The notes beneath the pieces are model-generated. The model saw only the letters and a list, made by a program, of their open reading frames with translations. It did not search any database and had not been told where the DNA came from. Shown here piece by piece: positions 17,912 to 38,136 of a stretch of DNA of 64,000 nt (within the stretch, counting starts at the first letter, position 1; every line of letters begins with the position of its first letter). This stretch comes from Candidatus Parcubacteria bacterium (GTDB lineage Bacteria; Patescibacteriota; Patescibacteriia; CAIXNZ01), in assembly GCA_026395685.1 (NCBI GenBank), contig JAPLYG010000016.1, positions 1,035-65,034 of the forward strand, read 5' to 3'. The position numbers and the translations under genes were made by a program.

Positions 17912-19234
17912 TTATGATGTTAGTAATTCGCGTAAAACCTCTTTAGTTGCCAATCTGTCATCCCAGGGAGTAACAACGCCATTACTTTTAATGCTCTGCT
18001 CTGTTCCCTTGCCGGTAATTAAAACTAAATCCCCGGGCTGGGCTATTTCACAGGCGTACTTAATCGCTTCCCTGCGATCTGTTATTTTAAATAAAGTCTG
18101 ATTTTCAATTTTTCCTTTTTCGATTGCCCCGGCTGCAATTTCATTTAAAATTTTATCAGTCGTCTCATCATAAGAATCCTCATCAGTCAATATGGTAATA
18201 TCAGCCTCCTCGCCCGAAATCCTGCCCAAAGTCGGACGTTTCGCATGATCACGCACTCCTCCGGCTGAACCAAAAACATGAATAATACGATTTTTAGGAA
18301 ACAGTTTAATAGTATTAAACAAATTGGCAAAAGATACAGGATCATGAGCATAATCAACCAAGACAGAAAAATTCTGGCCTTCAGCAATCGATTCCATGCG
18401 GCCGGGCACACCACTCACCTTGGCTAAAGCTTGCTTACACTGATTTAAATTTAAACCAAATTGCAAGCCGACACAAATTGCGGCCAAACAGTTGTAAACG
18501 TTAAATCTACCAATCATTTTTGTTTTAAAATCTTCAGTACCAACCCGGAAGAAAGTACCATTCACCTGGAGATTTATATCACCAGCCAAAACCGCCTGAG
18601 CATCCGGAAGTTTACTGACAAAGCTTATACCATAGCCATACTTCTTATCAGCGCTAAAATTAAAATAATACTGCCAATGCTGGTCATCTAAATTTACCAC
18701 CAAAGTTTTGGGGATTTCCTTACCGTCGATTTTCTTTCTGGGAAATTTTGCTAAGCTGCTAAAAAGCTGGCCTTTGGCTTTTTTATAATTTTCAAACGAA
18801 CCATGAGCTTCAATGTGTTCCGGAGTTAAATTTGTAAAAACAGCAACATCATAATTTATCCCCCAATTGCGATTTTGCATTATGCCTTCAGAAGATGTTT
18901 CCACAACCGCATATTTACAACCGGCTGTCACCATCTCTCTTAGCATCTTTTGCAAAGCCAACCGGCCCTGCATAGTTTTATGAGTAGCGTTTATCCATTC
19001 CTTATCAGCAATTTTAAAATTCACGGTCGTCATTAAGCCGACTTTAGCGCCAGTTTCTTCCAAAACATTGGCAATCAGATTACTCGTCGTTGATTTACCA
19101 TTAGTGCCGGTAACACCGATGACAATCAATTTATTAGATGGAAAGCCATATCTGTAATTAGCCAAAACAGCCCAGCATTTATGATACGCTAAAAGCCAAT
19201 TTTTAGGGATTAATTTTCTTATTAAAGTTTTCAT
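17912..19234 (-). CDS. Mur ligase family protein (MurE-like)
   Basis: 'IGVTGTNGKSTT' P-loop and 'VDYAHDP' motif typical of MurE. Confidence 0.65.
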   Translation of the reverse strand: MKTLIRKLIPKNWLLAYHKCWAVLANYRYGFPSNKLIVIGVTGTNGKSTTSNLIANVLEETGAKVGLMTTVNFKIADKEWINATHKTMQGRLALQKMLREMVTAGCKYAVVETSSEGIMQNRNWGINYDVAVFTNLTPEHIEAHGSFENYKKAKGQLFSSLAKFPRKKIDGKEIPKTLVVNLDDQHWQYYFNFSADKKYGYGISFVSKLPDAQAVLAGDINLQVNGTFFRVGTEDFKTKMIGRFNVYNCLAAICVGLQFGLNLNQCKQALAKVSGVPGRMESIAEGQNFSVLVDYAHDPVSFANLFNTIKLFPKNRIIHVFGSAGGVRDHAKRPTLGRISGEEADITILTDEDSYDETTDKILNEIAAGAIEKGKIENQTLFKITDRREAIKYACEIAQPGDLVLITGKGTEQSIKSNGVVTPWDDRLATKEVLRELLTS

Positions 19235-22688: not shown

Positions 22689-23324
22689 CTAACTGCTTTT
22701 TAGCTCAAATTCCAAAAGATCTTTTTTTGTATTCAAAGGCTGCCAAAAACCTTCATGCTTGTATAACTTAAGCTTTAGCTTGGGAAAGACATCATATTCC
22801 AGGCTTCCTTTAGTTGCTAAGAGATTAATTAAGTCGTCTTTATTAAATAAATACCAGCCACAGCTGACCCAATCCTTCAAAACCGGCTTTTCAATGAACT
22901 TGGCATAGCCATTTTCCTCTGTAACCAAACCAAACGGCAATTGCGGATGAGCCACGCAGATCGCGTTTGGTCCTAATGTTTCCAGTTTTTCTAAATTAAT
23001 ATCAGTAATATCGTCACAATTTAAACAAAGAACAAGATCTGAACTTGCCAGGTCAATTGCCTGCCTTAAAGCGCCAGCCGTGCCTAATGGTTCAGTCTCA
23101 ATGGCAAATTCTATAGGATAGTCGGGATAATTAACCTTAACATAATCAATAATCTCCTCAGCTTTATAGCCTAAAGAAAGAATAATCTTAGCTAACTTTT
23201 TGGTTGCGAATAAATAATCAAGCTGATGCCCCAAAATCGCTTTATCTTTGACTTTGACCAGTGGCTTAGGTAAAACATCTTCCATGCGATTGCCTTTGCC
23301 TCCGGCTAAAATAATTGCTTCCAT
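22689..23324 (-). CDS. Small sugar-/phospho-alcohol nucleotidyltransferase (NTP_transferase fold, LicC/GMPP-like)
   Basis: 'MEAIILAGGKGNRM' signature G-rich loop; 211 aa. Confidence 0.65.
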   Translation of the reverse strand: MEAIILAGGKGNRMEDVLPKPLVKVKDKAILGHQLDYLFATKKLAKIILSLGYKAEEIIDYVKVNYPDYPIEFAIETEPLGTAGALRQAIDLASSDLVLCLNCDDITDINLEKLETLGPNAICVAHPQLPFGLVTEENGYAKFIEKPVLKDWVSCGWYLFNKDDLINLLATKGSLEYDVFPKLKLKLYKHEGFWQPLNTKKDLLEFELKSS

Positions 23325-23327
23325 AAT

Positions 23328-24647
23328 TTAGATTAATTTATAGACTTTAGGAATCGGTTTTATAAAATCCTGCGCCCAAGCATAGGTATAAGCGCCCTGA
23401 TTAGGTATGATAATCAAATCATTTTCTGTCATTTTTTGAGCATAGCAATAGTGACCCCAGAAATCTTCAGGCATACATAAATTGCCGTACATCGCCACTT
23501 CTATTTCTTTTAAGGCTGGATGAGTCAAATTAATTACCGGGAAATAGTATGTCGTATAATATTCCCAGCCGACCATATTATTGCCGGCGTTTAAAATTAC
23601 ATTGCCTGAACTTTTAACATCTGCTACCCGCATTACCAGATGCATCGATTTAGCGCTTATTATTCTGCCTGGTTCAAAAAAATAGCTAGACTTAACTATC
23701 GGCTTTAAATGCAAATTAATCGCCTGAAAAATACTCTCTGCATATTGCGACGAGGTTGGAGTTTTGAAAATAAAATACTTATCAAAAAAGTCAAGCCGCT
23801 TATCAAAATATTCAGCCGCCAGCTTTATTATCTCTCCTTGCGGCTCTGCCCAGGGATAATATCCGTCTAAAGCTGTGGGGTAAAATCCGCCGCCCAAATC
23901 AATAAATTTAATTTGCGCTAAGTCAGATTTACTGAAATGAATTTTTAAATATTTCCCCAAAATCCTGATTATTTCCTGATACGGTTGTACTTCCAAATTC
24001 AAACTCATATGGCATTGGATGCCCTGCAATTCAATTTGAGGATATTTTTTTGCCGCTTGCCAGAATCTGGCTAAATCATCAAGAGCAATGCCAAATTTTG
24101 ACCAACTGCCATGCAGTGGGGTATAAATCCTAATACCGGCTCTTATTTTCTCTCCCCTGCCAAGGAGCGCGGCAATTTTTTCTAATTCGCGGAAACTGTC
24201 AATTTGAATAATAACTCTAGCTCGGTTTTTTATGGCTAATTTTAATTCTGACTCGCTTTTACCCGGCCCGCTAAAAATTATTTTCTTAGCCTTGCAGTCC
24301 AAAGCCATTTCTAATTCTCGTCCGCTCGAGACATCAAGGCCCATGCCTTGGCGCACCGCGATTTTCAAAATTTCAGGATAATGATTTGATTTAACCGCAT
24401 AATAAGGCTGCTGATCAAACTTATACTTGCCAAAAGACGATTGAAAGTCTTTAATGCTCGCTATCAGCGATTTAACATCAAACAGATAAAATGGCTCTGA
24501 AGTTTTAGCTGCAATGGCTTTAATCTTTTTCTTTAATTTTAGAGTTTGCCTTACAATTGCTAAAAGACTGCCCCTTTCAGCGGTTACTTTTTGTTTTAGT
24601 AATTTCCAAATTAATTTTTCTTGCGCTGACTGATTCTTTAGCAGCAT
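23328..24647 (-). CDS. PLP-dependent decarboxylase of the Orn/DAP/Arg decarboxylase (alanine-racemase fold) family
   Basis: 'YYAVKSNHYPEILKIAVRQGMGLDVSSGRELEMAL' PLP-lysine motif; 439 aa. Confidence 0.7.
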   Translation of the reverse strand: MLLKNQSAQEKLIWKLLKQKVTAERGSLLAIVRQTLKLKKKIKAIAAKTSEPFYLFDVKSLIASIKDFQSSFGKYKFDQQPYYAVKSNHYPEILKIAVRQGMGLDVSSGRELEMALDCKAKKIIFSGPGKSESELKLAIKNRARVIIQIDSFRELEKIAALLGRGEKIRAGIRIYTPLHGSWSKFGIALDDLARFWQAAKKYPQIELQGIQCHMSLNLEVQPYQEIIRILGKYLKIHFSKSDLAQIKFIDLGGGFYPTALDGYYPWAEPQGEIIKLAAEYFDKRLDFFDKYFIFKTPTSSQYAESIFQAINLHLKPIVKSSYFFEPGRIISAKSMHLVMRVADVKSSGNVILNAGNNMVGWEYYTTYYFPVINLTHPALKEIEVAMYGNLCMPEDFWGHYCYAQKMTENDLIIIPNQGAYTYAWAQDFIKPIPKVYKLI

Positions 24648-24674
24648 AGATTACCCGTTATAACTCCAATAAAT

Positions 24675-27098
24675 CTATTTGGTATTGGCCATTAGATGAA
24701 AATAAGGCGGACGATTTTTATAGCGTTTAATTGCCAAATACATTATTTCTTCAATAAACTGCCCATAATCTTGCCCGGTTAATTCTGCACAATTGGGCAC
24801 GCAATCACCCATATTGATTGAAGGGTTGGGATTTAATTCCAAAACATAAGGGTTGTCATCTTTGTCTACGCGAATTTCTACCCGGCCATAATCATGACAG
24901 TCTAGAATATTGTATGTATCCAAAGCCATTTCGCCCAATAATGTCTCTAACTTTTTACTGATATTGCGTACCGGACGCTGAACAACAATCCCCATCTTTT
25001 CTGCAGAAATATCCGGGGAAAATTTAATATCATGGGTGTAAATGTGCCATTGTCCCTGAGTCATGTCTTTAAAAATTGAGCGGGATAAGGGTAAAACCTT
25101 CAAATCATTTTCTTCACTTCCCAAAATTGAAACATCATATTCATCGCCTTCTATATATTCTTCAATCAAAGCCGGCGAGCCTAAGTCGATAATTACTTTT
25201 TTCAGTTGTTTAGTTAGCTCTTCAGTATTAGTCACAACCGACTCATTAGTAATGCCGATGGAATTATCGGTATTTGAAGGCTTAACAATCAGCGGATAAC
25301 GCAAATTCTGATCAATTTCATCGTCCATTGAATAGACATAATCCCATTTGGGGGTTGGAATGCCATGAAAAGCCAATAACTTTTTAACTCTAATTTTATC
25401 AATACATAAACTTAATGTTGACGGATTCGAACCAGTATAAGGTATTTGCAATATATCCAGCAAGGCGGCGGCATGCGGTTCCAGCAGACTGGAATCATTA
25501 ATCCTTTCACAGACATTAAATACCAAATCCACATCGCTTTCACTTAATTCCTTAAAAGCTTTCTGAATATTATTAAAATCAAAAAAGGTAACTTTATATC
25601 CCCGATCCTTTAAAGTTTTTTCTATATTGCGTCCGACTGACATCAAATCAGCATTGACCAAATTTTCCCCTTCTTCAAAAATATTACAGGCTATGCCTAC
25701 GTGCAATTTCTTTTGTTCAGACTTAGACATCCTTCTGATTTTTTCAATTCTGGCCGCCCGAACAAATAAATCAGGTTTAATAGCTGCTAAAGAAAGACTA
25801 TTTTTTCTGGAAGTTTTACCAAAAGAAGATTCTGGGGCAAACTTTGCCACTTCAAATTTTACATATTTCATCGCCTCTCTCAGATTATCCTGAGCGTCAA
25901 GCAAGCTGTAGCCTGAAGCTGTAATCCAACCCAAATTATCATAGCCTTCAGGAGGAGCAAAAATCGGATCACCTATCTCCTTATAAAAATGCATTTCCCC
26001 GATTGACGGCCATTTTTCAATTTCATAATCAATATTAGCGGAAATCAACACCCCGGAATAATCGGGACGAAAATCCTGACCAATAATATATTTTAAAGGA
26101 TTGTCCGGTTTTTTTATTTTAATGAAGTAACCCAAAGCAACTTTAACCGCATACTCAATCAAATCTACGCCCCAACAGCCTTTAATATAGGAGTAAATAT
26201 AATCACCGCCCATACGCAGATTAATTTCAATTGGCACCGGGCCATGAGGGGTGGATTTTGCCTCCCAATGCACAATGCCATTTTGCAAGCCCAGTTTTTC
26301 CAATGTTTCTTCAGCCTGCTCAAATAATTCCTGCTGTTGCAAAGCTGGCAAACTTGAAGGGATTGATTGCCCAACTTCTACAAAAAATGGCTCCTGCGTC
26401 TGAAAATTATCAGAAATAGACCAAAATTTTACTTTGCCGTTCTGGATAATAATATCAATATCGACTTCATCGCCGTCAATATATTCTTCCACGAAAATAT
26501 CCAGGCCGTCAGCCAAAGCGCTTTCAGTCGTAGTCGAAATATTTTTTTTAATATAATTGTAGGTATTTGCCAAATCATCCTTGCCATTTACCTTGATAAC
26601 AAAAGCGCTGGAAGCGCCATAAGCCGGCTTAATTACTACAGGAAATTTAAAATCATCAGGCAAATTTTGAATTTCAGCCACTGATTTCAGTAAAACATGC
26701 TTTGGCGTAGCAATACCGTTTTGTTCGCAAAAATCCCTGAATAAATATTTATTCCTGACTTTTTTGGCAATATTATAAGGGATGCCTACCCAATTAAATT
26801 TATCAGCAATTTTGGCAGTCAATAAAACATCATCCTCCCAAAAAGTTACCACGCCGCTAATCTTAACTTCCGGATTACTGGCGATAAATTCCTTAATTGC
26901 GTTGATGCATTCAGTCTGATTGGTATTATCCGCCAAAATCCAATGATCAATATATGGCGCTGCCCAATTTTTTTCTTTATTGAGACAAACGACTTTCAAG
27001 CCAAGCCTTTTTAATTTTTGCAGAATAAAACGCTTTTTTATTGACCCGGTATTAACGACCAGAATTGTTTTGTCCTCAAAATTATTTCCGTTTCTCAT
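24675..27098 (-). CDS. Large protein with two tandem ATP-grasp (Ddl-like) ligase domains
   Basis: Two copies of 'G(I)(A/P)TPK...(F/Y)P(V/L)(V/I)(I/V)KP' ATP-grasp cores at ~aa 120-330 and ~aa 560-790. Confidence 0.6.
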   Translation of the reverse strand: MRNGNNFEDKTILVVNTGSIKKRFILQKLKRLGLKVVCLNKEKNWAAPYIDHWILADNTNQTECINAIKEFIASNPEVKISGVVTFWEDDVLLTAKIADKFNWVGIPYNIAKKVRNKYLFRDFCEQNGIATPKHVLLKSVAEIQNLPDDFKFPVVIKPAYGASSAFVIKVNGKDDLANTYNYIKKNISTTTESALADGLDIFVEEYIDGDEVDIDIIIQNGKVKFWSISDNFQTQEPFFVEVGQSIPSSLPALQQQELFEQAEETLEKLGLQNGIVHWEAKSTPHGPVPIEINLRMGGDYIYSYIKGCWGVDLIEYAVKVALGYFIKIKKPDNPLKYIIGQDFRPDYSGVLISANIDYEIEKWPSIGEMHFYKEIGDPIFAPPEGYDNLGWITASGYSLLDAQDNLREAMKYVKFEVAKFAPESSFGKTSRKNSLSLAAIKPDLFVRAARIEKIRRMSKSEQKKLHVGIACNIFEEGENLVNADLMSVGRNIEKTLKDRGYKVTFFDFNNIQKAFKELSESDVDLVFNVCERINDSSLLEPHAAALLDILQIPYTGSNPSTLSLCIDKIRVKKLLAFHGIPTPKWDYVYSMDDEIDQNLRYPLIVKPSNTDNSIGITNESVVTNTEELTKQLKKVIIDLGSPALIEEYIEGDEYDVSILGSEENDLKVLPLSRSIFKDMTQGQWHIYTHDIKFSPDISAEKMGIVVQRPVRNISKKLETLLGEMALDTYNILDCHDYGRVEIRVDKDDNPYVLELNPNPSINMGDCVPNCAELTGQDYGQFIEEIMYLAIKRYKNRPPYFHLMANTK

Positions 27099-28369
27099 AT
27101 GAGTGTTTTTAATTCCTCCTGATAAATATTTAGTAACTTAGTTTGTAAATGTTTGGGCGCAGTACGCATGGGATAAACTTTAAAAAATTTATGATGCAGC
27201 ATTTTTTCCTGCTTAATGGTTTTATCCAGATACTTTTTCTTAAATAGCTCCATCAAGTCGCCATGGTGCCCTAAGCGATAAGCCATTAAAAAGGCCAAAC
27301 GTTGTTCGTCTTTAACAGCCGAAGGCATTTCATAAGCGCGTGTAATTTTCTTGGCGAAAAGCGGATATAAATCCCTATATTTAATATTAAAAAAGTCTTT
27401 GTTAAATCCGATTTTTTTGGGGTCACCGCCGACAGCAACTGAATACAGGTAAGCTTTGGCGCACATCGGGCAATGATAGCACCATCTATCCCTTGACGCC
27501 GTATCCAAGGAACAGGACATTAAATATTTTAAAAGCTTGGGATATCGATGGTATAATATTTTCATTTCCGCCAAATTATAAATCCCTTCCACCAGACTAA
27601 CAGCCTGAAAATTTCCTGAACTAAACTTATCAAAATATTTATTCATGGGACTCAAATAAACCGAAGACTGGTCAAATGACGGATAAGATTTAACACCCTG
27701 CTCCATCCAATAATCGTCAAAATTCTTTTCATTGCCTAGAATTAAATATTTTGCCTGGTAATGATAAGAAAAAGGCAACAACTCTAAAGCAAAAATCAAC
27801 ATACCGTTAGCGCTATCCCAGCCTTTTATTTTAATTGGCAAAGCCTTATTGAGATAAATTGCGTCCAAATTATCTTCAAAATATTCTATTTGCTTATGTT
27901 GTTCCCGGCAAAATTGGCTGATTATTCTTTTCTTAAATTTGTGTTCTAAGCTCTGCTCATCCTCCTTTTCAATAACGTATATCAGCCGGCAAGCTAAGCC
28001 TATTTCTTCGGCCAAACCATAAGAAAGCAAGCTGTCCTTGCCAAATGACAAAGCTAAAATCGCCTGAGACTCAACATTCGCCTGAGACGGGAGTTTTGTT
28101 TTTTCTTTTGGAATATGTAAAAAATCTTCTTGGCGATTTTTAATATATAATCCCAGCTGTTTAGTTTTAATTTTATTTAAATAGGCAACTCTGCCTAAGT
28201 CACCAAACAAACCATAATCAACTATTTTTCTGATGACCGGGTTGTTAAATCCAAATTGTATATTAATTTTACCGGAAGCAGCTATCGGCGCTGCACTCGC
28301 ATAAATAAAATTTTCAATTAAAAAATTTTTGGCTTTAAAATCTTTCCAGACACTGCGAGGATAAACCAT
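27095..28369 (-). CDS. Hypothetical protein with PP-loop-like 'SFGKDS' (adenine-nucleotide alpha-hydrolase-like) and C-terminal CxxCPxC
   Basis: Motif-level only; 4-bp overlap with upstream ATP-grasp gene. Confidence 0.35.
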   Translation of the reverse strand: MVYPRSVWKDFKAKNFLIENFIYASAAPIAASGKINIQFGFNNPVIRKIVDYGLFGDLGRVAYLNKIKTKQLGLYIKNRQEDFLHIPKEKTKLPSQANVESQAILALSFGKDSLLSYGLAEEIGLACRLIYVIEKEDEQSLEHKFKKRIISQFCREQHKQIEYFEDNLDAIYLNKALPIKIKGWDSANGMLIFALELLPFSYHYQAKYLILGNEKNFDDYWMEQGVKSYPSFDQSSVYLSPMNKYFDKFSSGNFQAVSLVEGIYNLAEMKILYHRYPKLLKYLMSCSLDTASRDRWCYHCPMCAKAYLYSVAVGGDPKKIGFNKDFFNIKYRDLYPLFAKKITRAYEMPSAVKDEQRLAFLMAYRLGHHGDLMELFKKKYLDKTIKQEKMLHHKFFKVYPMRTAPKHLQTKLLNIYQEELKTLI

Positions 28370-28474
28370 CGGATAAGAATCCTTGCCGTTAATCAGGATA
28401 TTAAAGCCTGAAGGATTAATTGAATATGAAATTTTTACCTGGGAATTTTTGATATTATTAAATTAATTCGCGGC

Positions 28475-28888
28475 TTATTGATACTTATAATCATAGGTTG
28501 AATATGCGACTGTCAATTCCTCGCCTTTTTTTATATTTCTGATGGTTACGAATTTTTCTCCGCCGTCAATTGTTTTCAAATTTGGCGTAGTAGAATTATT
28601 CACAAAAAAAGAAATATCCATGCCATTGAATCCGGTTTCCGGAATATAAACGGAACGATCTTCTTCAATCACGCAAAAATCGTCAACCAATTTTAAGATT
28701 TCTTCATCCAAATCCTTGAGCTCATCCATTTGAAATTTAATCCACTCCAGGCTTTCATTGCCAAAAGGATCAGTCCCTTCAGGAATATCGCGGATGGCAA
28801 AAACGCCCACGCCTTCAACCGCAGACGGCCTCAGCCGGCAATATGTATTTTTTATTTTATTTAAAAGCGTTTCTTTATCAAGAGCCAT
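28475..28888 (-). CDS. Small SET-domain-like protein (tentative)
   Basis: 'GVGVFAIRDIPEGT' and C-terminal 'IKKGEELTVAYSTY' resemble SET N- and C-motifs. Confidence 0.3.
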   Translation of the reverse strand: MALDKETLLNKIKNTYCRLRPSAVEGVGVFAIRDIPEGTDPFGNESLEWIKFQMDELKDLDEEILKLVDDFCVIEEDRSVYIPETGFNGMDISFFVNNSTTPNLKTIDGGEKFVTIRNIKKGEELTVAYSTYDYKYQ

Positions 28889-28928
28889 GACATTAAAATA
28901 AATTATTAATTCGAGTTTCTAATAAAGT

Positions 28929-29831
28929 TTACTCCCGTTTTAAACATATTACTAAACTATATATTGTATTTGGTAAATATTTTTTTTGAGTCGGCAAGAC
29001 TACTTTTTTAAAAATCTCGCCCAGTTGATCACCATCTTCAAAATTATAGTCTCCTTCTTCAGGCGGAGGAATCGGACCAGCTTCCTGCAAAATTACTAAA
29101 TGGTCAGCGGGCATATCTTTTAAAGGCGGGGTAACTCCGCAATCAGCATAGTCTTTCAATAATGCCCGGCTTATTTTTTCAATCATAGCCTGCTCTCTAG
29201 AAGTGCCCCGATCATTCAAATTTTCATTTTTATAACCGCAATAAAATCCATTGTAACCGTTTTCACGACCGACGTTCAGCTGTTTTTTAACAGCGCCTGG
29301 TGTTGTTGAACAGCTGACAACCGCATCATAATTTCCCCGTAGAAACATTTGCCGATATAAATCTTCACAAACGCCCTGATTGCGGTTTTTAAATTTTGTA
29401 AATACTAAATTAACTAAAAAACCCTTTTTATTTCCCGGCACATCAATATTTTTTCCAGTTAAAAAGCCGGCTAGTTTGCCATTTTTTACCGTCAGATAAA
29501 TTGAGTCAGAATCGCCGAAGTCGCCTTCTTTTATATTCTCTATTGCCTCATCCCTATTTGTTTTATCTTTCATGTCAAACCTAACATTTTTATTGCGCGG
29601 GCCAAAAGCCTGAAGCACTGATTCACCAAAAATATTACACAATTTTTCTAATTGAGCAGGAGATTCCCAAGCATCTCGATCCACTATGTCTAATTTCAAT
29701 AATTCAATATTTTTATTTTCCGGATCAGGTTTTTGAATAATCTCAATTTTTACACCTGCTAAACTATTTTCCAGTTTGCTGCCAAATGATTCCCCAAATA
29801 TCTTCCCCATCGACTTTTCATTAATATTCAT
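28929..29831 (-). CDS. Hypothetical protein, possibly GNAT-like fold
   Basis: 'NRNQGVCEDLYRQ' weak acyl-CoA-binding motif A. Confidence 0.25.
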   Translation of the reverse strand: MNINEKSMGKIFGESFGSKLENSLAGVKIEIIQKPDPENKNIELLKLDIVDRDAWESPAQLEKLCNIFGESVLQAFGPRNKNVRFDMKDKTNRDEAIENIKEGDFGDSDSIYLTVKNGKLAGFLTGKNIDVPGNKKGFLVNLVFTKFKNRNQGVCEDLYRQMFLRGNYDAVVSCSTTPGAVKKQLNVGRENGYNGFYCGYKNENLNDRGTSREQAMIEKISRALLKDYADCGVTPPLKDMPADHLVILQEAGPIPPPEEGDYNFEDGDQLGEIFKKVVLPTQKKYLPNTIYSLVICLKRE

Positions 29832-30001
29832 TTAAAAAAATTATTATTAAAAAATTTTAATCTTATTTTATATTTTAAGTATATGACTAGTGATTTTGAT
29901 TGTCAATGATTTTTTGAATCTTTTTGTAAAATTAAAATTTATTTTTAAAAATGCTATTGCTAATAAAAAAGAGTCTCAACCGATGAGACTCTTAGTTGCC
30001 C

Positions 30002-31051
30002 TCACTGCAACTGATAACGAGCTGCTGCTGATAAAATAATTGCTTTCAGCATTTGAGAATATTTCCGACTGGTTAAATTCCAGATCTTTGCCAAATGTCC
30101 GTCCCAGCACCAGCCGGGATTAGGATTGACTTCCAAAATGCGCGGGAAACCCTTGGCATCAAGACGCCAATCAATACGTGCATAATCTTGGCAACACAAA
30201 GCCGTAAACATCAGTTTGGAATAAGAAGCAATTATATTTCTAGTTGACGCGGGAATATTTGCCAAACGACTTTTCACCTGCCAATATGGCGAATCAGGCA
30301 ACCATTTGGCTTCCCAACCCTGAATCGGCGGCAAGTTAGACGGCAAACAGGAATAATCTTCTTCGATAATCGGTAATACTTCAGAACCGATTATCCCGCA
30401 GGTCAGATCTTGTCCTGTCAAAAATTCCTGAAAAATAACCTCATCATTATAATGAGCTTCTTCTCTGAGGAATTTCAGGCTCCGTAAAAGCTCTGCGCTA
30501 TTATAAACCACATTTTGCGCAAAAATTCCCATTCCGCCATCACCACACCTGGGTTTGATAATGATCGGATAATGACAAATTTCTTCCCAAGACTGGTAAG
30601 TTTTCGGAAAAGGCACTCCCAGCAATTGTGCTAATCTAAAAACACCGGCCTTGTCATAACATTGCTCCATACACTCAGCTCCGGCACCGGTATATGGCAA
30701 GTTCAATTCTTCCAATATTAAAGGGATTGCCTTTTCCTGTCGCGGATTATTAAACAAACCCTCGTCGCACAAATTTACCACTAGCCACACATCGCTTTTT
30801 ATCGCCTTCAAATCTCCAATTAAGCTTCTGTGATTATCCAATAAAACAAAATCAAATTCTTGCAGCTGCCGCGAAGCATCTTCAAGAACATTGATTGTCT
30901 TTAAATCTTCGTCATTAAATTGACCACCTCGCTTAATCTGATCAGGGAAACGATGATCGCCCAGAATAACGGCAATTAATTTCGGCTCGACTGCAGATAA
31001 TTCAGACTCAAAACTTCCTGTCATTTGCTTTCCCCTGAATATCTTTGACAT
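30002..31051 (-). CDS. D-alanine--D-alanine ligase-family ATP-grasp enzyme
   Basis: N-terminal 'LILEELNLPYTGAGAECMEQCYDKAGVFRLAQLLGVPFP' matches Ddl N/central pattern; 'YPIIIKPRCGDGGMGIF' ATP-grasp core. Confidence 0.6.
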   Translation of the reverse strand: MSKIFRGKQMTGSFESELSAVEPKLIAVILGDHRFPDQIKRGGQFNDEDLKTINVLEDASRQLQEFDFVLLDNHRSLIGDLKAIKSDVWLVVNLCDEGLFNNPRQEKAIPLILEELNLPYTGAGAECMEQCYDKAGVFRLAQLLGVPFPKTYQSWEEICHYPIIIKPRCGDGGMGIFAQNVVYNSAELLRSLKFLREEAHYNDEVIFQEFLTGQDLTCGIIGSEVLPIIEEDYSCLPSNLPPIQGWEAKWLPDSPYWQVKSRLANIPASTRNIIASYSKLMFTALCCQDYARIDWRLDAKGFPRILEVNPNPGWCWDGHLAKIWNLTSRKYSQMLKAIILSAAARYQLQ

Positions 31052-31137
31052 GATGATGTAAAGAACTGATTAGGCAGTATATATTTTTGTAACAAAAAAG
31101 TCAAGACAAAAATCCTGACTATTTAAATTTATATCAG

Positions 31138-31659
31138 TTAAACTAGAAAATTCTTTTCCTTTAACTTCTTCAGCGCGGTTAATGTAAGTCTCTTTTTCTG
31201 CGTCTGATAAATTTTTCCCGCAAATTTTTTTGCCTCGTCATAATCAGCCCAGAGATAATCATCAAATTCTGTTTGGGCAATATCCAGATCTTTAATTTTG
31301 CTTTGCACGGCAACTAAATAATATCTCTTGCCTTTCATTTGAATATTCTCGCCGGCTATTGTTTTTATTTCTCTCGTCCCCTGAGCTGCTGCCGGAAAAG
31401 TTATGACCTCAGTATCGAGAAATTCTATTTGTTCAGTTTTAATATTTAAATCCAGCCCTAATTCTTCTTTTATTTCACGATTCAATGTATCTGCTAATGA
31501 CTCACCTATTTCAATTCCGCCCTGAGGCAATTGCCACAATTCATGTTCCTTTTTATACACCAGCAGGATCTTCTGATCATTAATAATACAAGCAACAGCC
31601 ACGGGACGATAACCCCGCTCTTTCACTTCTTCGATTTCCTGATCAAACTTAGTTGCCAT
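31138..31659 (-). CDS. NUDIX hydrolase
   Basis: Nudix box 'GGIEIGESLADTLNREIKEELGL'. Confidence 0.75.
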   Translation of the reverse strand: MATKFDQEIEEVKERGYRPVAVACIINDQKILLVYKKEHELWQLPQGGIEIGESLADTLNREIKEELGLDLNIKTEQIEFLDTEVITFPAAAQGTREIKTIAGENIQMKGKRYYLVAVQSKIKDLDIAQTEFDDYLWADYDEAKKFAGKIYQTQKKRLTLTALKKLKEKNFLV

Positions 31660-32755
31660 GGATGTTTAAATGCTGAAAAATTAAATCAACATATTTTCGG
31701 GCAGCATCTCCTGCCATAAGCTGGAAAATATTTCTGCCTAAGGCTAAACGATCCCCTGAATTTCGCATAAAATATTCAATCACTTCTACCAGACTATCTT
31801 TATTTAACTGTGATTGTGCGAGAATTTTGACCGCATTATTTTTGGCAAAATACTTGGCATTAATCTCCTGATGGCCGGGAATGGGTATGACAACAGCAGG
31901 CTTGCCCAAAACTGCAAATTCTGTCAGCGCAGAAAAGCCTGCCCTGCTAATTATCAAATCAGCCGCAGCCAAAGCATCAAAGATTTCCCTATTTAAAAAA
32001 CCATACTCTCGATAACGCATAGTGACTAACTTCATTTGCTCACGGCTATAATAATTCAAAAGGTGTCCGCTGATTGTTTTGCCTTTACCGGCAAGATGAA
32101 TAACCTGATACTTTGACGCCAAATACCCGATAGACTCCAATACTGCCTGATTAAGGGTCTGAGCGCCTGTTCCTCCCCCGATGATTAATATTATTGGCAA
32201 ATCAGAATTTAATTGAAAAAGATGGATAGCCTTTTCCCGGCTGCCGGAAAAAATTTCAGTTCTGACCGGATTGCCAATGCAAACTGTTTTCTTTTTATCA
32301 AAACTTTCAATCTGTTCCGGAAAAGTAACGGTAATTACATCAGCCTTTTTAGCCATCAGTTTATTTGCCAGACCTATTTCCAAATCCTGCTGATGAACGA
32401 AAATTTTAATTTTTAAAAATCTGGCAGCATATACAACAGGCACCGCCACAAAGCTGCCGGCGGTTAAAATCACCTCGGGTTTAAATTTACGCAAAATAAA
32501 GAATGACTTAACAAATCCGCAGATAAAAATAAAGGGAGCAATAATATTCCATCCGGAAAAATAACGGCGTAATTTGGCAGCGCTAATGGTTTTAAAAGGA
32601 ATAGAGTATTTGGCTATTAATTCTTTTTCGGGACCGTTTTTGGTTCCCAACCATAAAACTTCCAGGCTTGGCTCCCTGGTTTTTAATTCTTCATAAATTG
32701 CCACAAGCGGAGAAACACTACCCATCGTGCCCCCTCCGGAAAATAGTATCTTCAT
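31649..32755 (-). CDS. murG: MurG-like UDP-GlcNAc:lipid I GlcNAc transferase (GT28)
   Basis: 'KILFSGGGTMGSVSPLVAI' N-terminal G-loop; C-terminal GT-B domain; context with ftsW/murD. Confidence 0.75.
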   Translation of the reverse strand: MKILFSGGGTMGSVSPLVAIYEELKTREPSLEVLWLGTKNGPEKELIAKYSIPFKTISAAKLRRYFSGWNIIAPFIFICGFVKSFFILRKFKPEVILTAGSFVAVPVVYAARFLKIKIFVHQQDLEIGLANKLMAKKADVITVTFPEQIESFDKKKTVCIGNPVRTEIFSGSREKAIHLFQLNSDLPIILIIGGGTGAQTLNQAVLESIGYLASKYQVIHLAGKGKTISGHLLNYYSREQMKLVTMRYREYGFLNREIFDALAAADLIISRAGFSALTEFAVLGKPAVVIPIPGHQEINAKYFAKNNAVKILAQSQLNKDSLVEVIEYFMRNSGDRLALGRNIFQLMAGDAARKYVDLIFQHLNIHGN

Positions 32756-33998: not shown

Positions 33999-35396
33999 TT
34001 ATTTTATTTTTTTTACAGCTGAGTTAAACTGGTCTCCCCTGTCAAATTCATTAATAAAAAGCCCAAAGCTGGCAGCCCCGGGAGAAAGCAAAAAGGTATC
34101 GCCTTTTTTTAAAATATACTTAGCTTGTTTAAAAGCTTCACTCATAGAATCTACAAAAACTAAATTTTCATTAAAATTTATCTTATTTAGCTCTTTCACT
34201 AATTTTTCAGTTGCTGTACCTTCAAATAAAATCAAAGCCTTTACTTTACTTTTCAGCACCCGAGCCATATCTTTAAATTCTAATTTTTTATCCGTTCCAC
34301 CTGCCAGCAACACAACCTTTTGCTCTAAAGAATTCAAGGCGGCAATAACCGCGTCCGGGGTGGTTGCCGTCGTGTCATTAATATATTTAATGCCCTTATA
34401 AGCACGAACCAATTGCATCCGGCCTTCGATACCGTTAAATCCGGCAACAACTTTTTTTATAATCAAAAATGGCACTCCAAAAACTCGGGTTAAAACAACA
34501 GCCCCCATGATATTTAATAAATTATGTTCGCCTTTTAACTTCAGCTCGCCTACATTAATAACTTTTTCTCTTTTGCCGTTGCGCTGATAATAAATCCAGC
34601 CATCTGATATATATGCCCCGTTTTCTTGAATTTTTAATTTATTTAAGCTAAACCAAAAAACCTGAGACTTGGCTTTTGAGCCCATCTGCCTGGTATAGTT
34701 ATTATCTTTATTCAAAACAATGAAATTATCACGAGTTTGGTATTTCCAAATCAATGATTTGGCCGCTGTATAATCAGCCATGCCCCTATAAGTGTTTAAA
34801 TGATCGCGCATTACATTAGTCACCAACGCATACTTTGGACTAGTTTTTGTTTCCCCCAGACCTTCTAATTGCCAGGAAGACAATTCCAAAATTACAGGAA
34901 TGTCTTTCTTAATCTTAGATAGATAGTCTAAGGGAGAAACTCTGATATTGCCTCCCATGATTGCACCTTTTTTATAGGCTTTTATAATCTTGTATACCAA
35001 TGAAGTAGTTGTACTTTTGCCTTTGGTGCCGGTAATGCCTAAAATCCGATCAGACTGACAAAGTTTAAAGAAGAGGCTTAAATCAGTTTCAATTAAAACT
35101 TTATGGGCAATGGCAGCCTGTAAATATTTGGAATCACGCCTCACTCCGGGATTTTTAATTATCATGTCGGCTTTAATAAAGTCAGCTATACGATGTTCTC
35201 CCAGTACGTATTTAATATTCTTTTTATATTTTTTTAACTGATTAAGTGAATTTGCCAGCAATTTTGCGGATCTTAAATCTGTCACGGTTAATAACGCGCC
35301 TTTTTGGGCTAAAAACTTCGTGACAGCTAATCCGCCGCCATGGACGCCAAGCCCCATTATGGTTATTTTCTTACCTTTAAAATCCAGGTTTTGCAT
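33999..35396 (-). CDS. murD: UDP-N-acetylmuramoylalanine--D-glutamate ligase MurD
   Basis: Rossmann N-domain 'GLGVHGGG', 'ITGTKGKSTTTSLV' P-loop, 465 aa. Confidence 0.8.
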   Translation of the reverse strand: MQNLDFKGKKITIMGLGVHGGGLAVTKFLAQKGALLTVTDLRSAKLLANSLNQLKKYKKNIKYVLGEHRIADFIKADMIIKNPGVRRDSKYLQAAIAHKVLIETDLSLFFKLCQSDRILGITGTKGKSTTTSLVYKIIKAYKKGAIMGGNIRVSPLDYLSKIKKDIPVILELSSWQLEGLGETKTSPKYALVTNVMRDHLNTYRGMADYTAAKSLIWKYQTRDNFIVLNKDNNYTRQMGSKAKSQVFWFSLNKLKIQENGAYISDGWIYYQRNGKREKVINVGELKLKGEHNLLNIMGAVVLTRVFGVPFLIIKKVVAGFNGIEGRMQLVRAYKGIKYINDTTATTPDAVIAALNSLEQKVVLLAGGTDKKLEFKDMARVLKSKVKALILFEGTATEKLVKELNKINFNENLVFVDSMSEAFKQAKYILKKGDTFLLSPGAASFGLFINEFDRGDQFNSAVKKIK

Positions 35397-37325: not shown

Positions 37326-37452
37326 AATTTCTCTCGTCCCTACTTTTTCCTTTCGCATGGCACCTCCTTTCAAAGATCGATCCTGGGTTTTTAGCATCTT
37401 GGCATAACCCCTTTTATAATGCAACTTATCAATCCACAAATCTTAATTCAAA

Positions 37453-38133: not shown

Positions 38134-38136
38134 AAA

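What the first reader, a model, noticed from the sequence alone, without database searches (positions are those of the whole stretch)
22689..31659. Ligase-rich accessory cluster fused to the mur/ftsW operon: NTP-transferase, PLP decarboxylase, double ATP-grasp, PP-loop-like, SET-like, GNAT-like?, Ddl-like ATP-grasp, Nudix
Nine co-directional genes with short or overlapping junctions sit immediately upstream of murG-ftsW-murD. Three ATP-grasp domains (two fused in an 807-aa protein, plus a Ddl-family enzyme), an Orn/DAP-type PLP decarboxylase and nucleotidyltransferase/Nudix genes together resemble a pathway building a non-canonical amino-acid/peptide or aminated nucleotide-activated precursor. 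This is plausibly an atypical peptidoglycan stem-peptide/cross-bridge route, or a small peptide/polyamine conjugate. The SET-like and PP-loop/CxxC proteins have no obvious role, so the cluster is a candidate undescribed pathway.
Basis: inference. Interest (0 to 1): 0.65.

Follow-up and report, generated by a model that had tools for sequence, protein, structure and literature searches.

The report
Conserved ligase–MurL-like pseudopeptide gene module
Next to the cell-wall genes of this candidate-phyla-radiation bacterium lies an undescribed enzyme set for joining amino acids without ribosomes. It pairs ATP-grasp ligases with a distant relative of the peptide epimerase MurL. The same set recurs in ultra-small and Asgard archaea, so it is probably not a peptidoglycan pathway.

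Summary
The domain calls are right, but the region is not one nine-gene cluster fused to the mur operon. It has eight genes on the minus strand, downstream of murD-ftsW-murG. Terminator-like hairpins split them into three units: murD-ftsW-murG-Nudix; a lone Ddl-like ATP-grasp (349 aa); and GNAT-like–SET–'PP-loop'–double ATP-grasp–PLP decarboxylase–NTP-transferase.

The 424-aa 'PP-loop' protein models with pLDDT 93.8 as a QueC-like fold, with a GKDS loop and a four-Cys motif. It belongs to a family with no Pfam model. [quoted passage not shown]

At least 470 species genomes encode the family (Patescibacteria, DPANN, Bathyarchaeia, Asgard and others). In 39 of 56 well-flanked loci a Ddl-like ATP-grasp lies within 6 kb. 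Recurrent additions are an LAL-type ATP-grasp, the decarboxylase, lysine-2,3-aminomutase (often fused to the ligase), SET and GNAT. Only 5 of the 56 loci lie by mur/ftsW.

Best reading: a ribosome-independent pathway to a lysine-type pseudopeptide whose terminal carboxylate is adenylated, probably epimerised, then decarboxylated and N-decorated. The product is unknown. No description of it was found in the papers searched.

The parts
27095..28369 (-). MurL-like / QueC-fold PP-loop ATPase (424 aa as called; it probably starts about 28 codons further upstream). This is the anchor gene of the module. Predicted role: adenylate a carboxylate.
   Evidence: AF2 model pLDDT 93.8. Best Foldseek PDB hits are QatC, Cap9 and QueC, then other PP-loop enzymes. 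Invariant GKDS loop and C286/C297/C300/C303. No Pfam hit. 38 of 40 family members hit NCBIfam MurL, best E 3e-12, colinear over HMM positions about 100-445 of 447. A conserved in-frame N-terminal stretch lies upstream of the ATG with no canonical start codon.
24675..27098 (-). Fused double ATP-grasp ligase (807 aa). The N-terminal half is of the L-amino-acid-ligase type; the C-terminal half is Ddl-like. Its start overlaps the stop of the MurL-like gene by 4 nt.
   Evidence: Pfam ATP-grasp_4 2.6e-30, LAL_C2, Dala_Dala_lig_C 4.8e-33. PDB: 3vot L-amino acid ligase 2.8e-24 and BacD for the N half; Ddl structures for the C half. Below the NCBIfam Ddl cut-off (193.8 vs 243 bits). K215/R255/E270/N272 equivalents are kept; Y216->F, S281->D, L282->C. 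The 801-816-aa fusion is conserved next to the MurL-like gene in many Patescibacteria loci.
23328..24647 (-). Fold-type III PLP decarboxylase (439 aa) of the DAP/Orn decarboxylase family. It is not an orthologue of LysA.
   Evidence: Pfam Orn_Arg_deC_N 3.6e-30 and Orn_DAP_Arg_deC. lysA HMM 144.6 bits vs cut-off 297.9. PDB: DAP decarboxylases; full-length match to N-citrylornithine decarboxylase 7kh2; also BtrK and D-Orn/D-Lys decarboxylase. Found within 6 kb of the MurL-like gene in 17 of 56 well-flanked loci, including archaea.
28475..28888 (-). Small SET-domain protein (137 aa), a predicted SAM-dependent amine (lysine-type) N-methyltransferase. Recurrent accessory gene.
   Evidence: Pfam SET 34.8 bits vs 22.4. 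No PDB sequence hit. SET genes sit inside the module in L005, L014, L019 (Patescibacteria) and in L003/L004, L033 (Woesearchaeota).
28929..29831 (-). GNAT-like accessory protein (300 aa), first gene of the predicted core transcription unit.
   Evidence: No Pfam or NCBIfam hit. Only 3 homologues in the word-indexed search. Homologues lie next to the decarboxylase in L018 and L019, and in L005. AF2 pLDDT 61.8. All best listed Foldseek PDB hits are GNAT acetyltransferases, E about 2e-4. Bona fide GNAT genes accompany the module in L007 and in Asgard loci.
22689..23324 (-). Short sugar-phosphate-type nucleotidyltransferase (211 aa), 3 nt after the decarboxylase. Membership in the module is uncertain and specific to this subclade.
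   Evidence: Pfam NTP_transferase 4.5e-15. Best NCBIfam match HddC, 94.8 bits vs cut-off 300. It follows the decarboxylase only in the window, L005, L008 and L032.
30002..31051 (-). Stand-alone Ddl-like ATP-grasp (349 aa), probably its own transcription unit. It belongs to a separate widespread family and is probably not part of the core module.
   Evidence: Pfam Dala_Dala_lig_C 1e-17. NCBIfam Ddl 79.4 bits vs 243. K215/R255/D257/E270/N272 kept; Y216->W, S281->G, L282->H. 582 homologues at E<=1e-20, with listed hits 42-50% identical in Asgard, DPANN and Desulfobacterota, many fused to a class I methyltransferase. Stand-alone contexts in L087-L089. Absent from the closest relative's locus L005. 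Long separate branch in the NJ tree.
31138..31659 (-). Nudix hydrolase (173 aa). It overlaps the end of murG by 11 nt and is followed by a terminator-like hairpin. It belongs with murD-ftsW-murG, not with the module.
   Evidence: Pfam NUDIX 1.6e-16. Coordinates. Hairpin at 31120-31099. Nudix lies within 6 kb of the MurL-like gene in only 4 of 56 well-flanked loci.
29969..29993 (-). Intrinsic-terminator-like hairpin just after the 349-aa gene: AAGAGTCTCA-tcggt-TGAGACTCTT followed by TTTTTAT.
   Evidence: It lies in the 170-nt gap between the 349-aa and 300-aa genes.
29878..29906 (-). Sigma-70-like promoter (TTGACA-17-TATACT, 11 of 12 matches) about 45 nt upstream of the 300-aa gene. Predicted start of the core transcription unit.
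   Evidence: This is a consensus match only.
31099..31120 (-). Terminator-like hairpin (9 pairs) with a T-run after the Nudix gene, overlapped by a promoter-like site (TTGACT-17-TATACT) for the 349-aa gene.

Best explanation
The core of the finding is 22689/23328-29831: GNAT-like, SET, MurL-like PP-loop enzyme, LAL-Ddl double ATP-grasp and fold-III PLP decarboxylase. It is a self-contained, ribosome- and NRPS-independent pathway to a short amide-linked 'pseudopeptide'. It is not a branch of peptidoglycan synthesis.

Proposed mechanism:
1. The L-amino-acid-ligase half and the Ddl-like half of the 807-aa protein each form an amide bond through an acyl-phosphate.
2. The translationally coupled MurL-like enzyme adenylates the free terminal carboxylate of the ligase product (ATP to AMP + PPi). 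By analogy with MurL, its only characterised relative, it inverts that residue from L to D. This would be a 'ligate-then-epimerise' logic like MurD2/MurL.
3. The DAP-decarboxylase-family enzyme removes the alpha-carboxyl of a diamino-acid moiety (Lys/Orn/DAP type) that still has a free alpha-amine. This leaves an amine terminus, as FslC does on N-citrylornithine.
4. The SET and GNAT-like proteins methylate or acylate free amines.

In archaeal versions, a lysine-2,3-aminomutase-like enzyme supplies a beta-amino acid directly to a fused Ddl-like ligase. This points to lysine or beta-lysine as a building block.

Shown: domain identities, the fold of the MurL-like protein, its distant homology to MurL, and gene co-localisation across phyla.
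Inferred: substrates, order of steps, epimerisation, and the nature and role of the product (a polycationic or capped small solute, or a surface decoration).
For: - Conserved neighbourhood. The MurL-like family has a Ddl-like ATP-grasp within 6 kb in 39 of 56 loci with at least 3 kb of flank. An LAL-type ATP-grasp is present in 17, the decarboxylase in 17, an aminomutase in 12 and a second MurL-like paralogue in 10.
- The same set (Ddl-like x2, ATP-grasp_4, MurL-like, decarboxylase, aminomutase) occurs in Nanoarchaeota and other DPANN-like loci such as L025, L026, L028 and L085. Woesearchaeota carry aminomutase-Ddl fusion / SET / decarboxylase / MurL-like.
- The C-terminal half of the 807-aa protein groups with the second archaeal Ddl-like gene in an NJ tree.
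- MurL link: 38 of 40 family members hit NF041275, best E 3e-12, colinear over most of a 447-position model and of similar length. MurL needs ATP and Mg2+, yields AMP, and converts a C-terminal L-Glu to D-Glu after MurD2 ligation (PMC5808125, PMC8788868).
- PP-loop/QueC fold, pLDDT 93.8, with GKDS and a four-Cys motif. Characterised QueC-type enzymes act by adenylating a carboxylate (established knowledge of QueC).
- The 4-nt overlap between the MurL-like and 807-aa genes suggests coupled expression.
- Both Ddl-like domains keep the catalytic residues but not the D-Ala2-binding residues. Neither reaches the NCBIfam Ddl cut-off.
- The decarboxylase aligns over its full length with N-citrylornithine decarboxylase.
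- The aminomutase scores 504.7 bits against lysine 2,3-aminomutase AblA (cut-off 525.4) and passes the KamA family cut-off.
- No conserved small ORF (carrier or precursor peptide) was found near the modules.
Against: - No product, substrate or activity is known for any member. The MurL similarity is remote: 14.7 bits for the window protein, 45.7 bits at best, against a cut-off of 700. Function may therefore differ.
- A QueC-like fold equally allows amidation or ligation rather than epimerisation.
- 17 of the 56 well-flanked loci have no ATP-grasp nearby. Bathyarchaeia loci instead carry ABC exporter and radical-SAM genes. The family is thus not tied to a single pathway.
- Patescibacteria modules lack the aminomutase, so lysine or beta-lysine as a substrate is extrapolated from archaea.
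- Promoter and terminator calls are consensus matches only.
- The GNAT assignment rests on a low-confidence model.
Confidence: 0.5

Rival explanations
1. The pathway is the same small-molecule route, but the MurL-like enzyme is an amidating or ligating enzyme rather than an epimerase. After adenylation, the carboxylate is attacked by ammonia or an amine, as in QueC, or as in the protein-conjugating QatC and Cap9. Together with a GNAT cap and decarboxylation, this would give a charge-neutralised, capped di- or tripeptide. The logic resembles the osmolyte N-acetylglutaminylglutamine amide, which is made by a GNAT-ATP-grasp enzyme plus a PP-loop amidotransferase.
For: - The best structural matches are QatC, Cap9 and QueC, and the four-Cys motif resembles QueC's.
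- GNAT or GNAT-like genes recur in the module.
- Large clusters carry two MurL-like paralogues alongside 3-4 ATP-grasps, which fits extra bond-forming steps.
- The NAGGN comparison rests on my own knowledge of that pathway (Ngg/AsnO).
Against: - By sequence the family is closer to MurL (38 of 40 members) than to QueC (3 of 40, best E 1e-4).
- No glutaminase or ammonia-donor gene appears in the neighbourhoods listed.
Confidence: 0.2
2. This is a peptidoglycan-linked function in Patescibacteria. The module would build or edit a non-canonical stem-peptide residue, dipeptide or cross-bridge. For example, it could supply D-residues without racemases, or process a DAP/Lys-type residue for MurE.
For: - The module is adjacent to murD-ftsW-murG in the window, L005, L008 and L032.
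- A MurE gene lies within about 9 kb in the window, and near the MurL-like gene in L005, L013 and L016.
- MurL itself works on the stem peptide (PMC5808125).
- The ligase domains are Ddl-like, and the decarboxylase belongs to the DAP-decarboxylase family.
Against: - Only 5 of 56 well-flanked loci lie by mur/ftsW genes. Other Patescibacteria modules sit by dnaG/rpoD or elsewhere.
- The module is common in DPANN, Bathyarchaeia and Asgard archaea.
- Terminator-like hairpins separate it from murG.
- The window's MurD passes the canonical MurD model (405.7 bits vs 211.95).
- The D-Ala2-binding residues of Ddl are not conserved.
Confidence: 0.1
3. This is a protein post-translational modification system. 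The ATP-grasp ligases would add amino acids (possibly beta-lysine) to a protein side chain or terminus, as RimK or tubulin-tyrosine ligase do. The QueC-like enzyme would conjugate or edit a terminus, as QatC and Cap9 do. SET would methylate a lysine.
For: - QatC and Cap9, which act on proteins according to their PDB entry descriptions, are the top structural hits.
- SET domains are classically protein-lysine methyltransferases, and KamA-family aminomutases include EpmB of EF-P beta-lysylation (established knowledge; one search lists the EpmB model at 223-237 bits for the best archaeal members, below its 369.3 cut-off).
Against: - No conserved candidate target or carrier gene, large or small, accompanies the module.
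- The ligases are of the Ddl and L-amino-acid-ligase types, which act on free amino acids, not the RimK type.
- The aminomutase is closest to AblA, not EpmB.
- A fold-III PLP decarboxylase needs a free alpha-amino acid moiety (established knowledge).
Confidence: 0.12
4. The genes are juxtaposed by chance. They are unrelated housekeeping genes that happen to share a strand.
For: This holds for the periphery. Nudix, the 349-aa ATP-grasp and perhaps the NTP-transferase are not conserved with the core.
Against: The core genes co-occur across bacterial and archaeal phyla, often overlapping or fused.
Confidence: 0.03

Closest known systems
[quoted passage not shown]
   Same: An amide ligase sits next to a roughly 450-aa enzyme that is homologous over most of its length. 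MurL uses ATP and Mg2+, releases AMP, and acts on the residue just added at the C-terminus (PMC5808125, PMC8788868).
   Different: - The homology is remote: 14.7-45.7 bits against a cut-off of 700.
- The partner ligase here is an ATP-grasp (Ddl or LAL type), not a Mur ligase.
- The module occurs in archaea and mostly away from mur genes.
- It carries a decarboxylase, SET, GNAT and aminomutase that have no counterpart in the MurD2/MurL pair as described in those reviews.
QueC and QueC-like enzymes (QatC of QatABCD, Cap9 of type IV CBASS)
   Same: Same PP-loop fold. These are the best structural matches. The family has a P-loop variant, SFGKDS, and a C-x10-C-x2-C-x2-C motif.
   Different: - The window protein has no significant Pfam QueC hit, and only 3 of 40 members hit it weakly.
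- It has an extra N-terminal domain of about 100 aa and a C-terminal helical domain of about 120 aa.
- None of the six neighbourhoods listed with Pfam annotation holds a 7-deazaguanine biosynthesis gene or a defence gene.
L-amino-acid ligases (BacD/YwfE, BL00235) and D-Ala-D-Ala ligase
   Same: The two halves of the 807-aa protein match these families by Pfam and PDB sequence search. The catalytic residues are kept.
   Different: - The two are fused into one protein.
- The Ddl-like half falls below the NCBIfam Ddl cut-off and lacks the Tyr216/Ser281/Leu282 equivalents.
- No bacilysin-type partner genes are present.
ATP-grasp plus fold-III decarboxylase pairs: FslA/FslC (rhizoferrin) and BtrJ/BtrK (butirosin side chain)
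   Same: In these pairs a carboxylate-amine ligation step is combined with a DAP-decarboxylase-family enzyme acting on a tethered amino acid that still has a free alpha-amine (for the sequence matches; the pathway logic is from my own knowledge).
   Different: There is no NIS synthetase and no acyl carrier protein here. The similarity is partial for BtrK (residues 41-175) and full-length but weak for FslC (E 1.1e-17).
AblA/AblB (N-epsilon-acetyl-beta-lysine) and Ngg/AsnO (N-acetylglutaminylglutamine amide) osmolyte pathways
   Same: The enzyme types are shared: a lysine-2,3-aminomutase-like enzyme plus GNAT in archaeal versions, and GNAT + ATP-grasp + PP-loop enzyme logic (own knowledge).
   Different: - The aminomutase falls just below the AblA cut-off (504.7 vs 525.4 bits).
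- The ligases and the PP-loop enzyme belong to different families from Ngg/AsnO.
- The Patescibacteria modules examined lack the aminomutase.

Membership tests
[quoted passage not shown] | Score at or above the curated equivalog cut-off (700 bits) | tested here: not met
   The window protein scores 14.7 bits, E 0.0082. The best family member scores 45.7 bits.
[quoted passage not shown] | Colinear homology over most of the length, with similar size | tested here: met
   38 of 40 members match. Individual matches together span HMM positions about 99-445 of 447, in proteins of 442-471 aa.
[quoted passage not shown] | Genomic pairing with a MurD2-type Mur ligase, in a genome that lacks glutamate racemase | tested here: inconclusive
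   The adjacent ligase is an ATP-grasp. The nearby MurD passes the canonical MurD model (405.7 bits), but that model may not separate MurD from MurD2. The rest of the genome is not available.
[quoted passage not shown] | ATP/Mg2+-dependent, AMP-forming, one-way L-to-D epimerisation of a C-terminal residue | not testable with these tools
   This needs an enzyme assay with chiral analysis.
QueC (PF06508) | PP-loop fold with an SGGxDS-type loop and a four-Cys zinc motif | tested here: met
   Foldseek hits QueC structures 2pg3 and 3bl5 at probability 1.00. Invariant G-K-D-S and C286/C297/C300/C303.
QueC (PF06508) | Pfam gathering score, and a queD/queE/folE or 7-deazaguanine gene context | tested here: not met
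   No Pfam hit for the window protein; 3 of 40 members hit weakly. No such neighbour appears in the Pfam-annotated neighbourhoods.
[quoted passage not shown] | NCBIfam Ddl subfamily cut-off (243 bits) | tested here: not met
   The 807-aa protein scores 193.8 bits and the 349-aa protein 79.4 bits.
[quoted passage not shown] | Catalytic residues Lys215, Arg255, Asp257, Glu270, Asn272 (E. coli DdlB numbering) | tested here: met
   Alignments to the E. coli DdlB structures 1iov and 1iow. All are kept in the 349-aa protein. In the C-terminal half of the 807-aa protein, Asp257 is Glu.
[quoted passage not shown] | Second-substrate (D-Ala2) residues Tyr216, Ser281, Leu282 | tested here: not met
   349-aa protein: Trp, Gly, His. 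C-terminal half of the 807-aa protein: Phe, Asp, Cys. Residue roles are from my own knowledge of DdlB.
L-amino-acid ligase (BacD / BL00235 type) | ATP-grasp_4 core plus the LAL_C2 C-terminal domain, with sequence similarity to solved L-amino-acid ligases | tested here: met
   ATP-grasp_4 105.6 bits; LAL_C2 30.0 bits vs 29.4. 3vot E 2.8e-24; BacD E 2e-9.
Diaminopimelate decarboxylase LysA (TIGR01048) | Equivalog cut-off (297.9 bits) | tested here: not met
   144.6 bits. The protein does belong to the fold-III Orn/DAP/Arg decarboxylase superfamily (PF02784 105.6 bits, PF00278 29.3 bits).
SET-domain methyltransferase (PF00856) | Pfam gathering score | tested here: met
   34.8 bits vs 22.4. Read by eye in the translation: NNSTTPN and GEELTVAY...Y stretches sit where SET motifs lie. 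Activity is not testable here.
GNAT acetyltransferase | Pfam GNAT model hit or a confident GNAT fold | tested here: inconclusive
   No Pfam hit. The model has pLDDT 61.8. All best listed Foldseek hits are GNATs, but only at E about 2e-4 and TM 0.25-0.32 relative to the query.
dcw (mur/fts) operon | Co-transcription with murG, and adjacency to mur genes conserved across lineages | tested here: not met
   Two terminator-like hairpins lie between murG/Nudix and the core. Mur/ftsW genes lie within 6 kb in only 5 of 56 well-flanked loci.

The most novel reading that the evidence does not exclude
The MurL-like/Ddl-like pair is a racemase-independent, ATP-driven 'ligate-then-epimerise' machine. It installs D-residues into lysine- or beta-lysine-derived pseudopeptides, which a D-centre-specific decarboxylase of the DAP-decarboxylase family then trims to amine termini. 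That would make these the first MurL-type peptide epimerases outside peptidoglycan synthesis and the first in archaea. They would yield a previously unknown class of polycationic or capped metabolites shared by CPR bacteria, DPANN and Asgard archaea, possibly a polyamine substitute or a surface or symbiosis factor in organisms with minimal metabolism.
Probability: 0.25. Interest if true: 0.8.

Novelty: new variant of a known kind. Interest (0 to 1): 0.6.

Why it matters
- MurL is described in the reviews read here as an unprecedented peptide epimerase with no recognised domains and an unclear mechanism (PMC5808125, PMC8788868). Placing it in the QueC-like PP-loop fold gives it a structural and mechanistic frame.
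- The finding also uncovers a sizeable sister family in Patescibacteria, DPANN, Bathyarchaeia and Asgard archaea: 168 representatives at E<=1e-30 among 1.84 billion, and at least 470 species genomes.
- It defines a compact operon that could be expressed in a laboratory host.
- These organisms have tiny genomes and yet keep 4-8 genes for this module. Its product is therefore likely to matter for their physiology or host association.
- For annotation, neither 'Ddl'-named ligase here reaches the NCBIfam Ddl cut-off or keeps the D-Ala2-binding residues, and the 'LysA'-like decarboxylase scores below the lysA cut-off. None of them should be counted as evidence of peptidoglycan or lysine biosynthesis in metabolic reconstructions of CPR or DPANN genomes.

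Tried and rejected
- Chlamydia-type MurC-Ddl fusion for the 807-aa protein: rejected. There is no Mur ligase domain; both halves are ATP-grasp.
- Searching PDB sequences with a profile of the 424-aa family: no hit even at E<=10. Only the fold comparison worked.
- Six counted literature searches, plus one query rejected for syntax, and five papers read. No description of this module was found. The Aravind 2010 paper, the DPANN protein-family paper and the pseudomurein paper do not cover it.
- Trying to bridge to MurL through the most divergent family representatives: they hit MurL no better (1 of 10, E 8e-4).
- Searching for conserved small ORFs (25-69 aa; precursor or carrier) around the modules: none is shared beyond near-identical loci.
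- The apparent N-terminal extensions of some family members (544-596 aa) look like low-complexity sequence or ORF-calling artefacts by eye, not extra domains; no domain search was run on them.
- The 349-aa ATP-grasp as the housekeeping Ddl left over from the dcw cluster: unlikely. It is far below the Ddl cut-off and has altered substrate residues. Its closest relatives are archaeal and deltaproteobacterial stand-alone or methyltransferase-fused proteins.
- The 349-aa ATP-grasp as the orthologue of the first archaeal Ddl-like gene: not resolved. It forms its own long branch in the NJ tree.
- The P-type ATPase and Gmad2/DUF333 genes as module parts: seen near the module in only about 3 loci; treated as local synteny.

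Full report
**What is there**

The window comes from a Candidatus Parcubacteria metagenome-assembled genome. The 424-aa ORF is identical to NCBI protein NTZ49_04280. GC content across the finding is about 34-40%, in line with most of the window.

All relevant genes are on the minus strand. In transcriptional order they are:
- mraY (39375-40424)
- a TrmB-type regulator, an NTP-transferase, an AAA_33 protein and a DUF333/Gmad2 protein
- murD (33999-35396; TIGR01087 405.7 bits)
- ftsW
- murG (31649-32755; 253.7 bits vs cut-off 250.25)
- the eight genes of the finding
- tRNA-Met and tRNA-Lys
- a P-type ATPase
- murE (17912-19234; 373.9 bits)

The finding therefore lies downstream of murD-ftsW-murG, not upstream. 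It contains eight genes, not nine.

**Domain check**

- 211 aa: NTP_transferase. The best match is HddC, far below its cut-off.
- 439 aa: fold-III Orn/DAP decarboxylase. The lysA model scores 144.6 bits against a cut-off of 297.9.
- 807 aa: two ATP-grasp modules. The N-terminal half is an L-amino-acid-ligase type (ATP-grasp_4 + LAL_C2). Its best PDB match is 3vot, E 2.8e-24, and it also matches BacD. The C-terminal half is Ddl-like, at 193.8 bits against the 243-bit Ddl cut-off.
- 137 aa: SET.
- 349 aa: Ddl-like, at only 79.4 bits against 243.
- 173 aa: Nudix.
- The 424-aa and 300-aa ORFs have no Pfam hit.

Both Ddl-like domains were aligned to the E. coli DdlB structures. They keep Lys215, Arg255, Asp/Glu257, Glu270 and Asn272. 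They replace Tyr216, Ser281 and Leu282, which hold the second D-Ala. They look like active ligases, but not D-Ala-D-Ala ligases.

**The 424-aa protein**

An alignment of 40 homologues gave an AlphaFold model with pLDDT 93.8 and pTM 0.93.

Foldseek against the PDB returns QatC (9y02_B), Cap9 (9nto_B) and QueC (2pg3, 3bl5), followed by NcsA, TtuA, ThiI and other PP-loop enzymes. The invariant residues include G110-K-D-S113 and C286/C297/C300/C303. This spacing, C-x10-C-x2-C-x2-C, resembles the zinc site of QueC.

By sequence there is no PDB relative, and only 3 of 40 members touch Pfam QueC. In contrast, 38 of 40 members hit the NCBIfam equivalog for MurL, with best E 3.1e-12. The individual matches together span HMM positions about 99-445 of 447, in proteins of about the same length.

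[quoted passage not shown] It requires ATP and Mg2+ and releases AMP. The reviews describe it as having no known conserved domain (PMC5808125, PMC8788868).

The family is therefore a distant, near-full-length homologue of MurL with a QueC-like PP-loop fold. It is far below the membership threshold of 700 bits. The safe inference is that it adenylates a carboxylate. Epimerisation is the most likely outcome by homology, and amidation or ligation is the alternative.

A profile search of 1.84 billion cluster representatives finds 168 proteins at E<=1e-30, 420 at E<=1e-10 and 1233 at E<=1e-3. This is a small family.

**Gene neighbourhoods**

I examined five neighbourhoods with Pfam annotation. I then scanned one genome per GTDB species. 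At least 470 genomes encode a relative, and 79 loci were fetched. ORFs in all loci were scored with phmmer against seed proteins from the window and from archaeal loci and clustered without reference to the seeds.

Fifty-six loci have at least 3 kb on both sides. Within 6 kb of the MurL-like gene they carry:

| Neighbour | Loci (of 56) |
|---|---|
| Ddl-like ATP-grasp | 39 |
| LAL-type ATP-grasp | 17 |
| decarboxylase | 17 |
| KamA-family aminomutase | 12 |
| second MurL-like paralogue | 10 |
| SET | 5 |
| mur/ftsW genes | 5 |

Typical forms of the module:
- Patescibacteria: MurL-like, an 801-816-aa LAL-Ddl fusion, with or without a 444-aa ATP-grasp_3, then the decarboxylase, with or without SET or the 300-aa family.
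- Nanoarchaeota and related DPANN-like loci: Ddl-like, Ddl-like, MurL-like (sometimes two), ATP-grasp_4, decarboxylase, aminomutase.
- Woesearchaeota: an aminomutase-Ddl fusion, SET, decarboxylase, MurL-like.
- Asgard: MurL-like, Ddl-like, GNAT and a threonine-synthase-like PLP enzyme.
- Bathyarchaeia: MurL-like with an ABC exporter and a radical-SAM gene, and no ATP-grasp.

The aminomutase scores 504.7 bits against lysine 2,3-aminomutase AblA (cut-off 525.4). It passes the KamA family cut-off.

In an NJ tree of Ddl-like domains, the C-terminal half of the 807-aa fusion groups with the second archaeal Ddl-like gene. The window's 349-aa protein forms its own long branch together with L008 and L032.

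No conserved small ORF accompanies the modules.

**What belongs and what does not**

True murD-ftsW-murG synteny with the module is seen only in the window, its 75%-identical relative L005, and L008 and L032, which are about 55% identical. Other Patescibacteria carry the module next to dnaG/rpoD or elsewhere.

Within the window, a clean hairpin with a T-run (29993-29969) follows the 349-aa gene. A TTGACA-17-TATACT site (29906-29878) comes after it, ahead of the 300-aa gene. Another hairpin (31120-31099) follows Nudix. These are consensus matches only, but both hairpins sit in intergenic gaps. They suggest three transcription units:
1. murD-ftsW-murG-Nudix
2. the 349-aa ATP-grasp alone
3. GNAT-like, SET, MurL-like, 807-aa ligase, decarboxylase, NTP-transferase

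The 349-aa protein has 582 homologues at E<=1e-20. The listed hits in Asgard, DPANN, Desulfobacterota and others are 42-50% identical to it. Many are fused to a class I methyltransferase, and in the three loci I examined the gene stands alone. It is absent from L005. I treat it as a separate orphan family.

Nudix is not conserved with the module. The NTP-transferase follows the decarboxylase only in this subclade.

The 300-aa ORF has few homologues. These lie next to the decarboxylase in two Komeilibacteria loci (L018, L019) and in L005. Its low-confidence model matches only GNAT folds among the best listed hits. It is a plausible accessory gene.

**Mechanism**

The best-supported reading is an amide-ligase assembly line for a small molecule.
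- The ATP-grasp domains make amide bonds.
- The MurL-like enzyme adenylates the new terminal carboxylate and probably inverts that residue. Its gene overlaps the ligase gene by 4 nt, and the logic parallels MurD2/MurL.
- The decarboxylase removes the carboxyl of a diamino-acid moiety that retains a free alpha-amine. It aligns over its full length with N-citrylornithine decarboxylase 7kh2 and also matches BtrK and D-Orn/D-Lys decarboxylase.
- SET and GNAT decorate amines.
- Fusion of the aminomutase to a ligase in archaea points to lysine or beta-lysine chemistry.

The product, the order of steps and the physiological role are inferred, not shown.

Rival readings are:
- amidation or ligation by the PP-loop enzyme, giving a capped dipeptide amide
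- a peptidoglycan-linked role restricted to Patescibacteria
- protein modification
- chance juxtaposition, which holds only for the peripheral genes

**Novelty**

No description of the module or of the MurL-like family was found in the searchable literature. The family has no Pfam or NCBIfam model of its own.

Every component belongs to a known superfamily. The ligase-plus-MurL logic also has a precedent. I therefore rate this as a new variant of a known kind.

What is new:
- the QueC-fold assignment for the MurL lineage
- the spread of that lineage into archaea
- a conserved, compact operon with an unknown product

Noticed in passing
window 28370-28462 (minus strand): The roughly 28 codons in frame upstream of the annotated ATG of the MurL-like gene encode IKNSQVKISYSINPSGFNILINGKDSYP. 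This is 23 of 28 identical to the N-terminus of the L005 orthologue. There is no ATG, GTG or TTG after the in-frame stop. The gene may start at ATC or ATT, or the N-terminus was lost recently. Most homologues are about 35 aa longer than the 424-aa call.
   Followed up: partly
window 53700-54900: A 1.2-kb segment has 58-65% GC in a genome of about 37% GC. It holds a 389-aa plus-strand ORF (53755-54924) with a lipoprotein-like signal peptide (MKKITAFTAMAVMILMTMLSGC). There is no Pfam, Rfam or tandem-repeat hit. It may be a recent horizontal acquisition or an assembly chimera.
   Followed up: partly
window 30002-31051, and loci L087-L089: The 349-aa Ddl-like protein belongs to a well-conserved family. 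The listed homologues are 42-50% identical between this CPR bacterium, Asgard and DPANN archaea, and Desulfobacterota. Many carry an N-terminal class I SAM methyltransferase (540-610 aa). In the three loci examined the gene stands alone. Its function is unknown.
   Followed up: partly
window 36789-38877: Between mraY and murD lie a TrmB-type regulator, a GlmU/AglF-like sugar-1-phosphate nucleotidyltransferase (226 aa; its NCBIfam hits include a sub-threshold match to MurU, 78.8 bits vs cut-off 250) and an AAA_33 kinase-like protein. This may be a sugar-nucleotide salvage unit inside the fragmented dcw region. TrmB and the NTP-transferase are conserved in L005.
   Followed up: no
window 42605-43123: An IS200/Y1-transposase-like ORF (172 aa) sits between the NifU-like gene (43164-43586) and the class V aminotransferase (cysteine desulfurase-like) gene (40955-42214).
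   Followed up: no
L008 17456-18661, L032 7009-8850, L019 9883-11640, L022 3640-5460, L027 8137-9894: A 400-613-aa protein with no Pfam hit lies inside or beside the module in five Patescibacteria loci. The representative examined (L027) has an HExxH-like motif (HEYSH). In L008 and L032 it sits between the 807-aa ligase and the decarboxylase. It is absent from the window and may be a peptidase accessory.
   Followed up: partly
L040, L042, L043, L046, L052 (Bathyarchaeia): In these loci the MurL-like gene has no ATP-grasp neighbour. It follows an ABC ATPase, an ABC-2 permease and a radical-SAM-like gene, and precedes a 131-aa protein. This is a different and possibly export-linked context for the same family.
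   Followed up: no
L050, L059, L072, L075, L076, L083: These loci hold convergent pairs of two MurL-like paralogues with overlapping 3' ends and no ligase detected nearby. This is another recurrent arrangement of the family.
   Followed up: no
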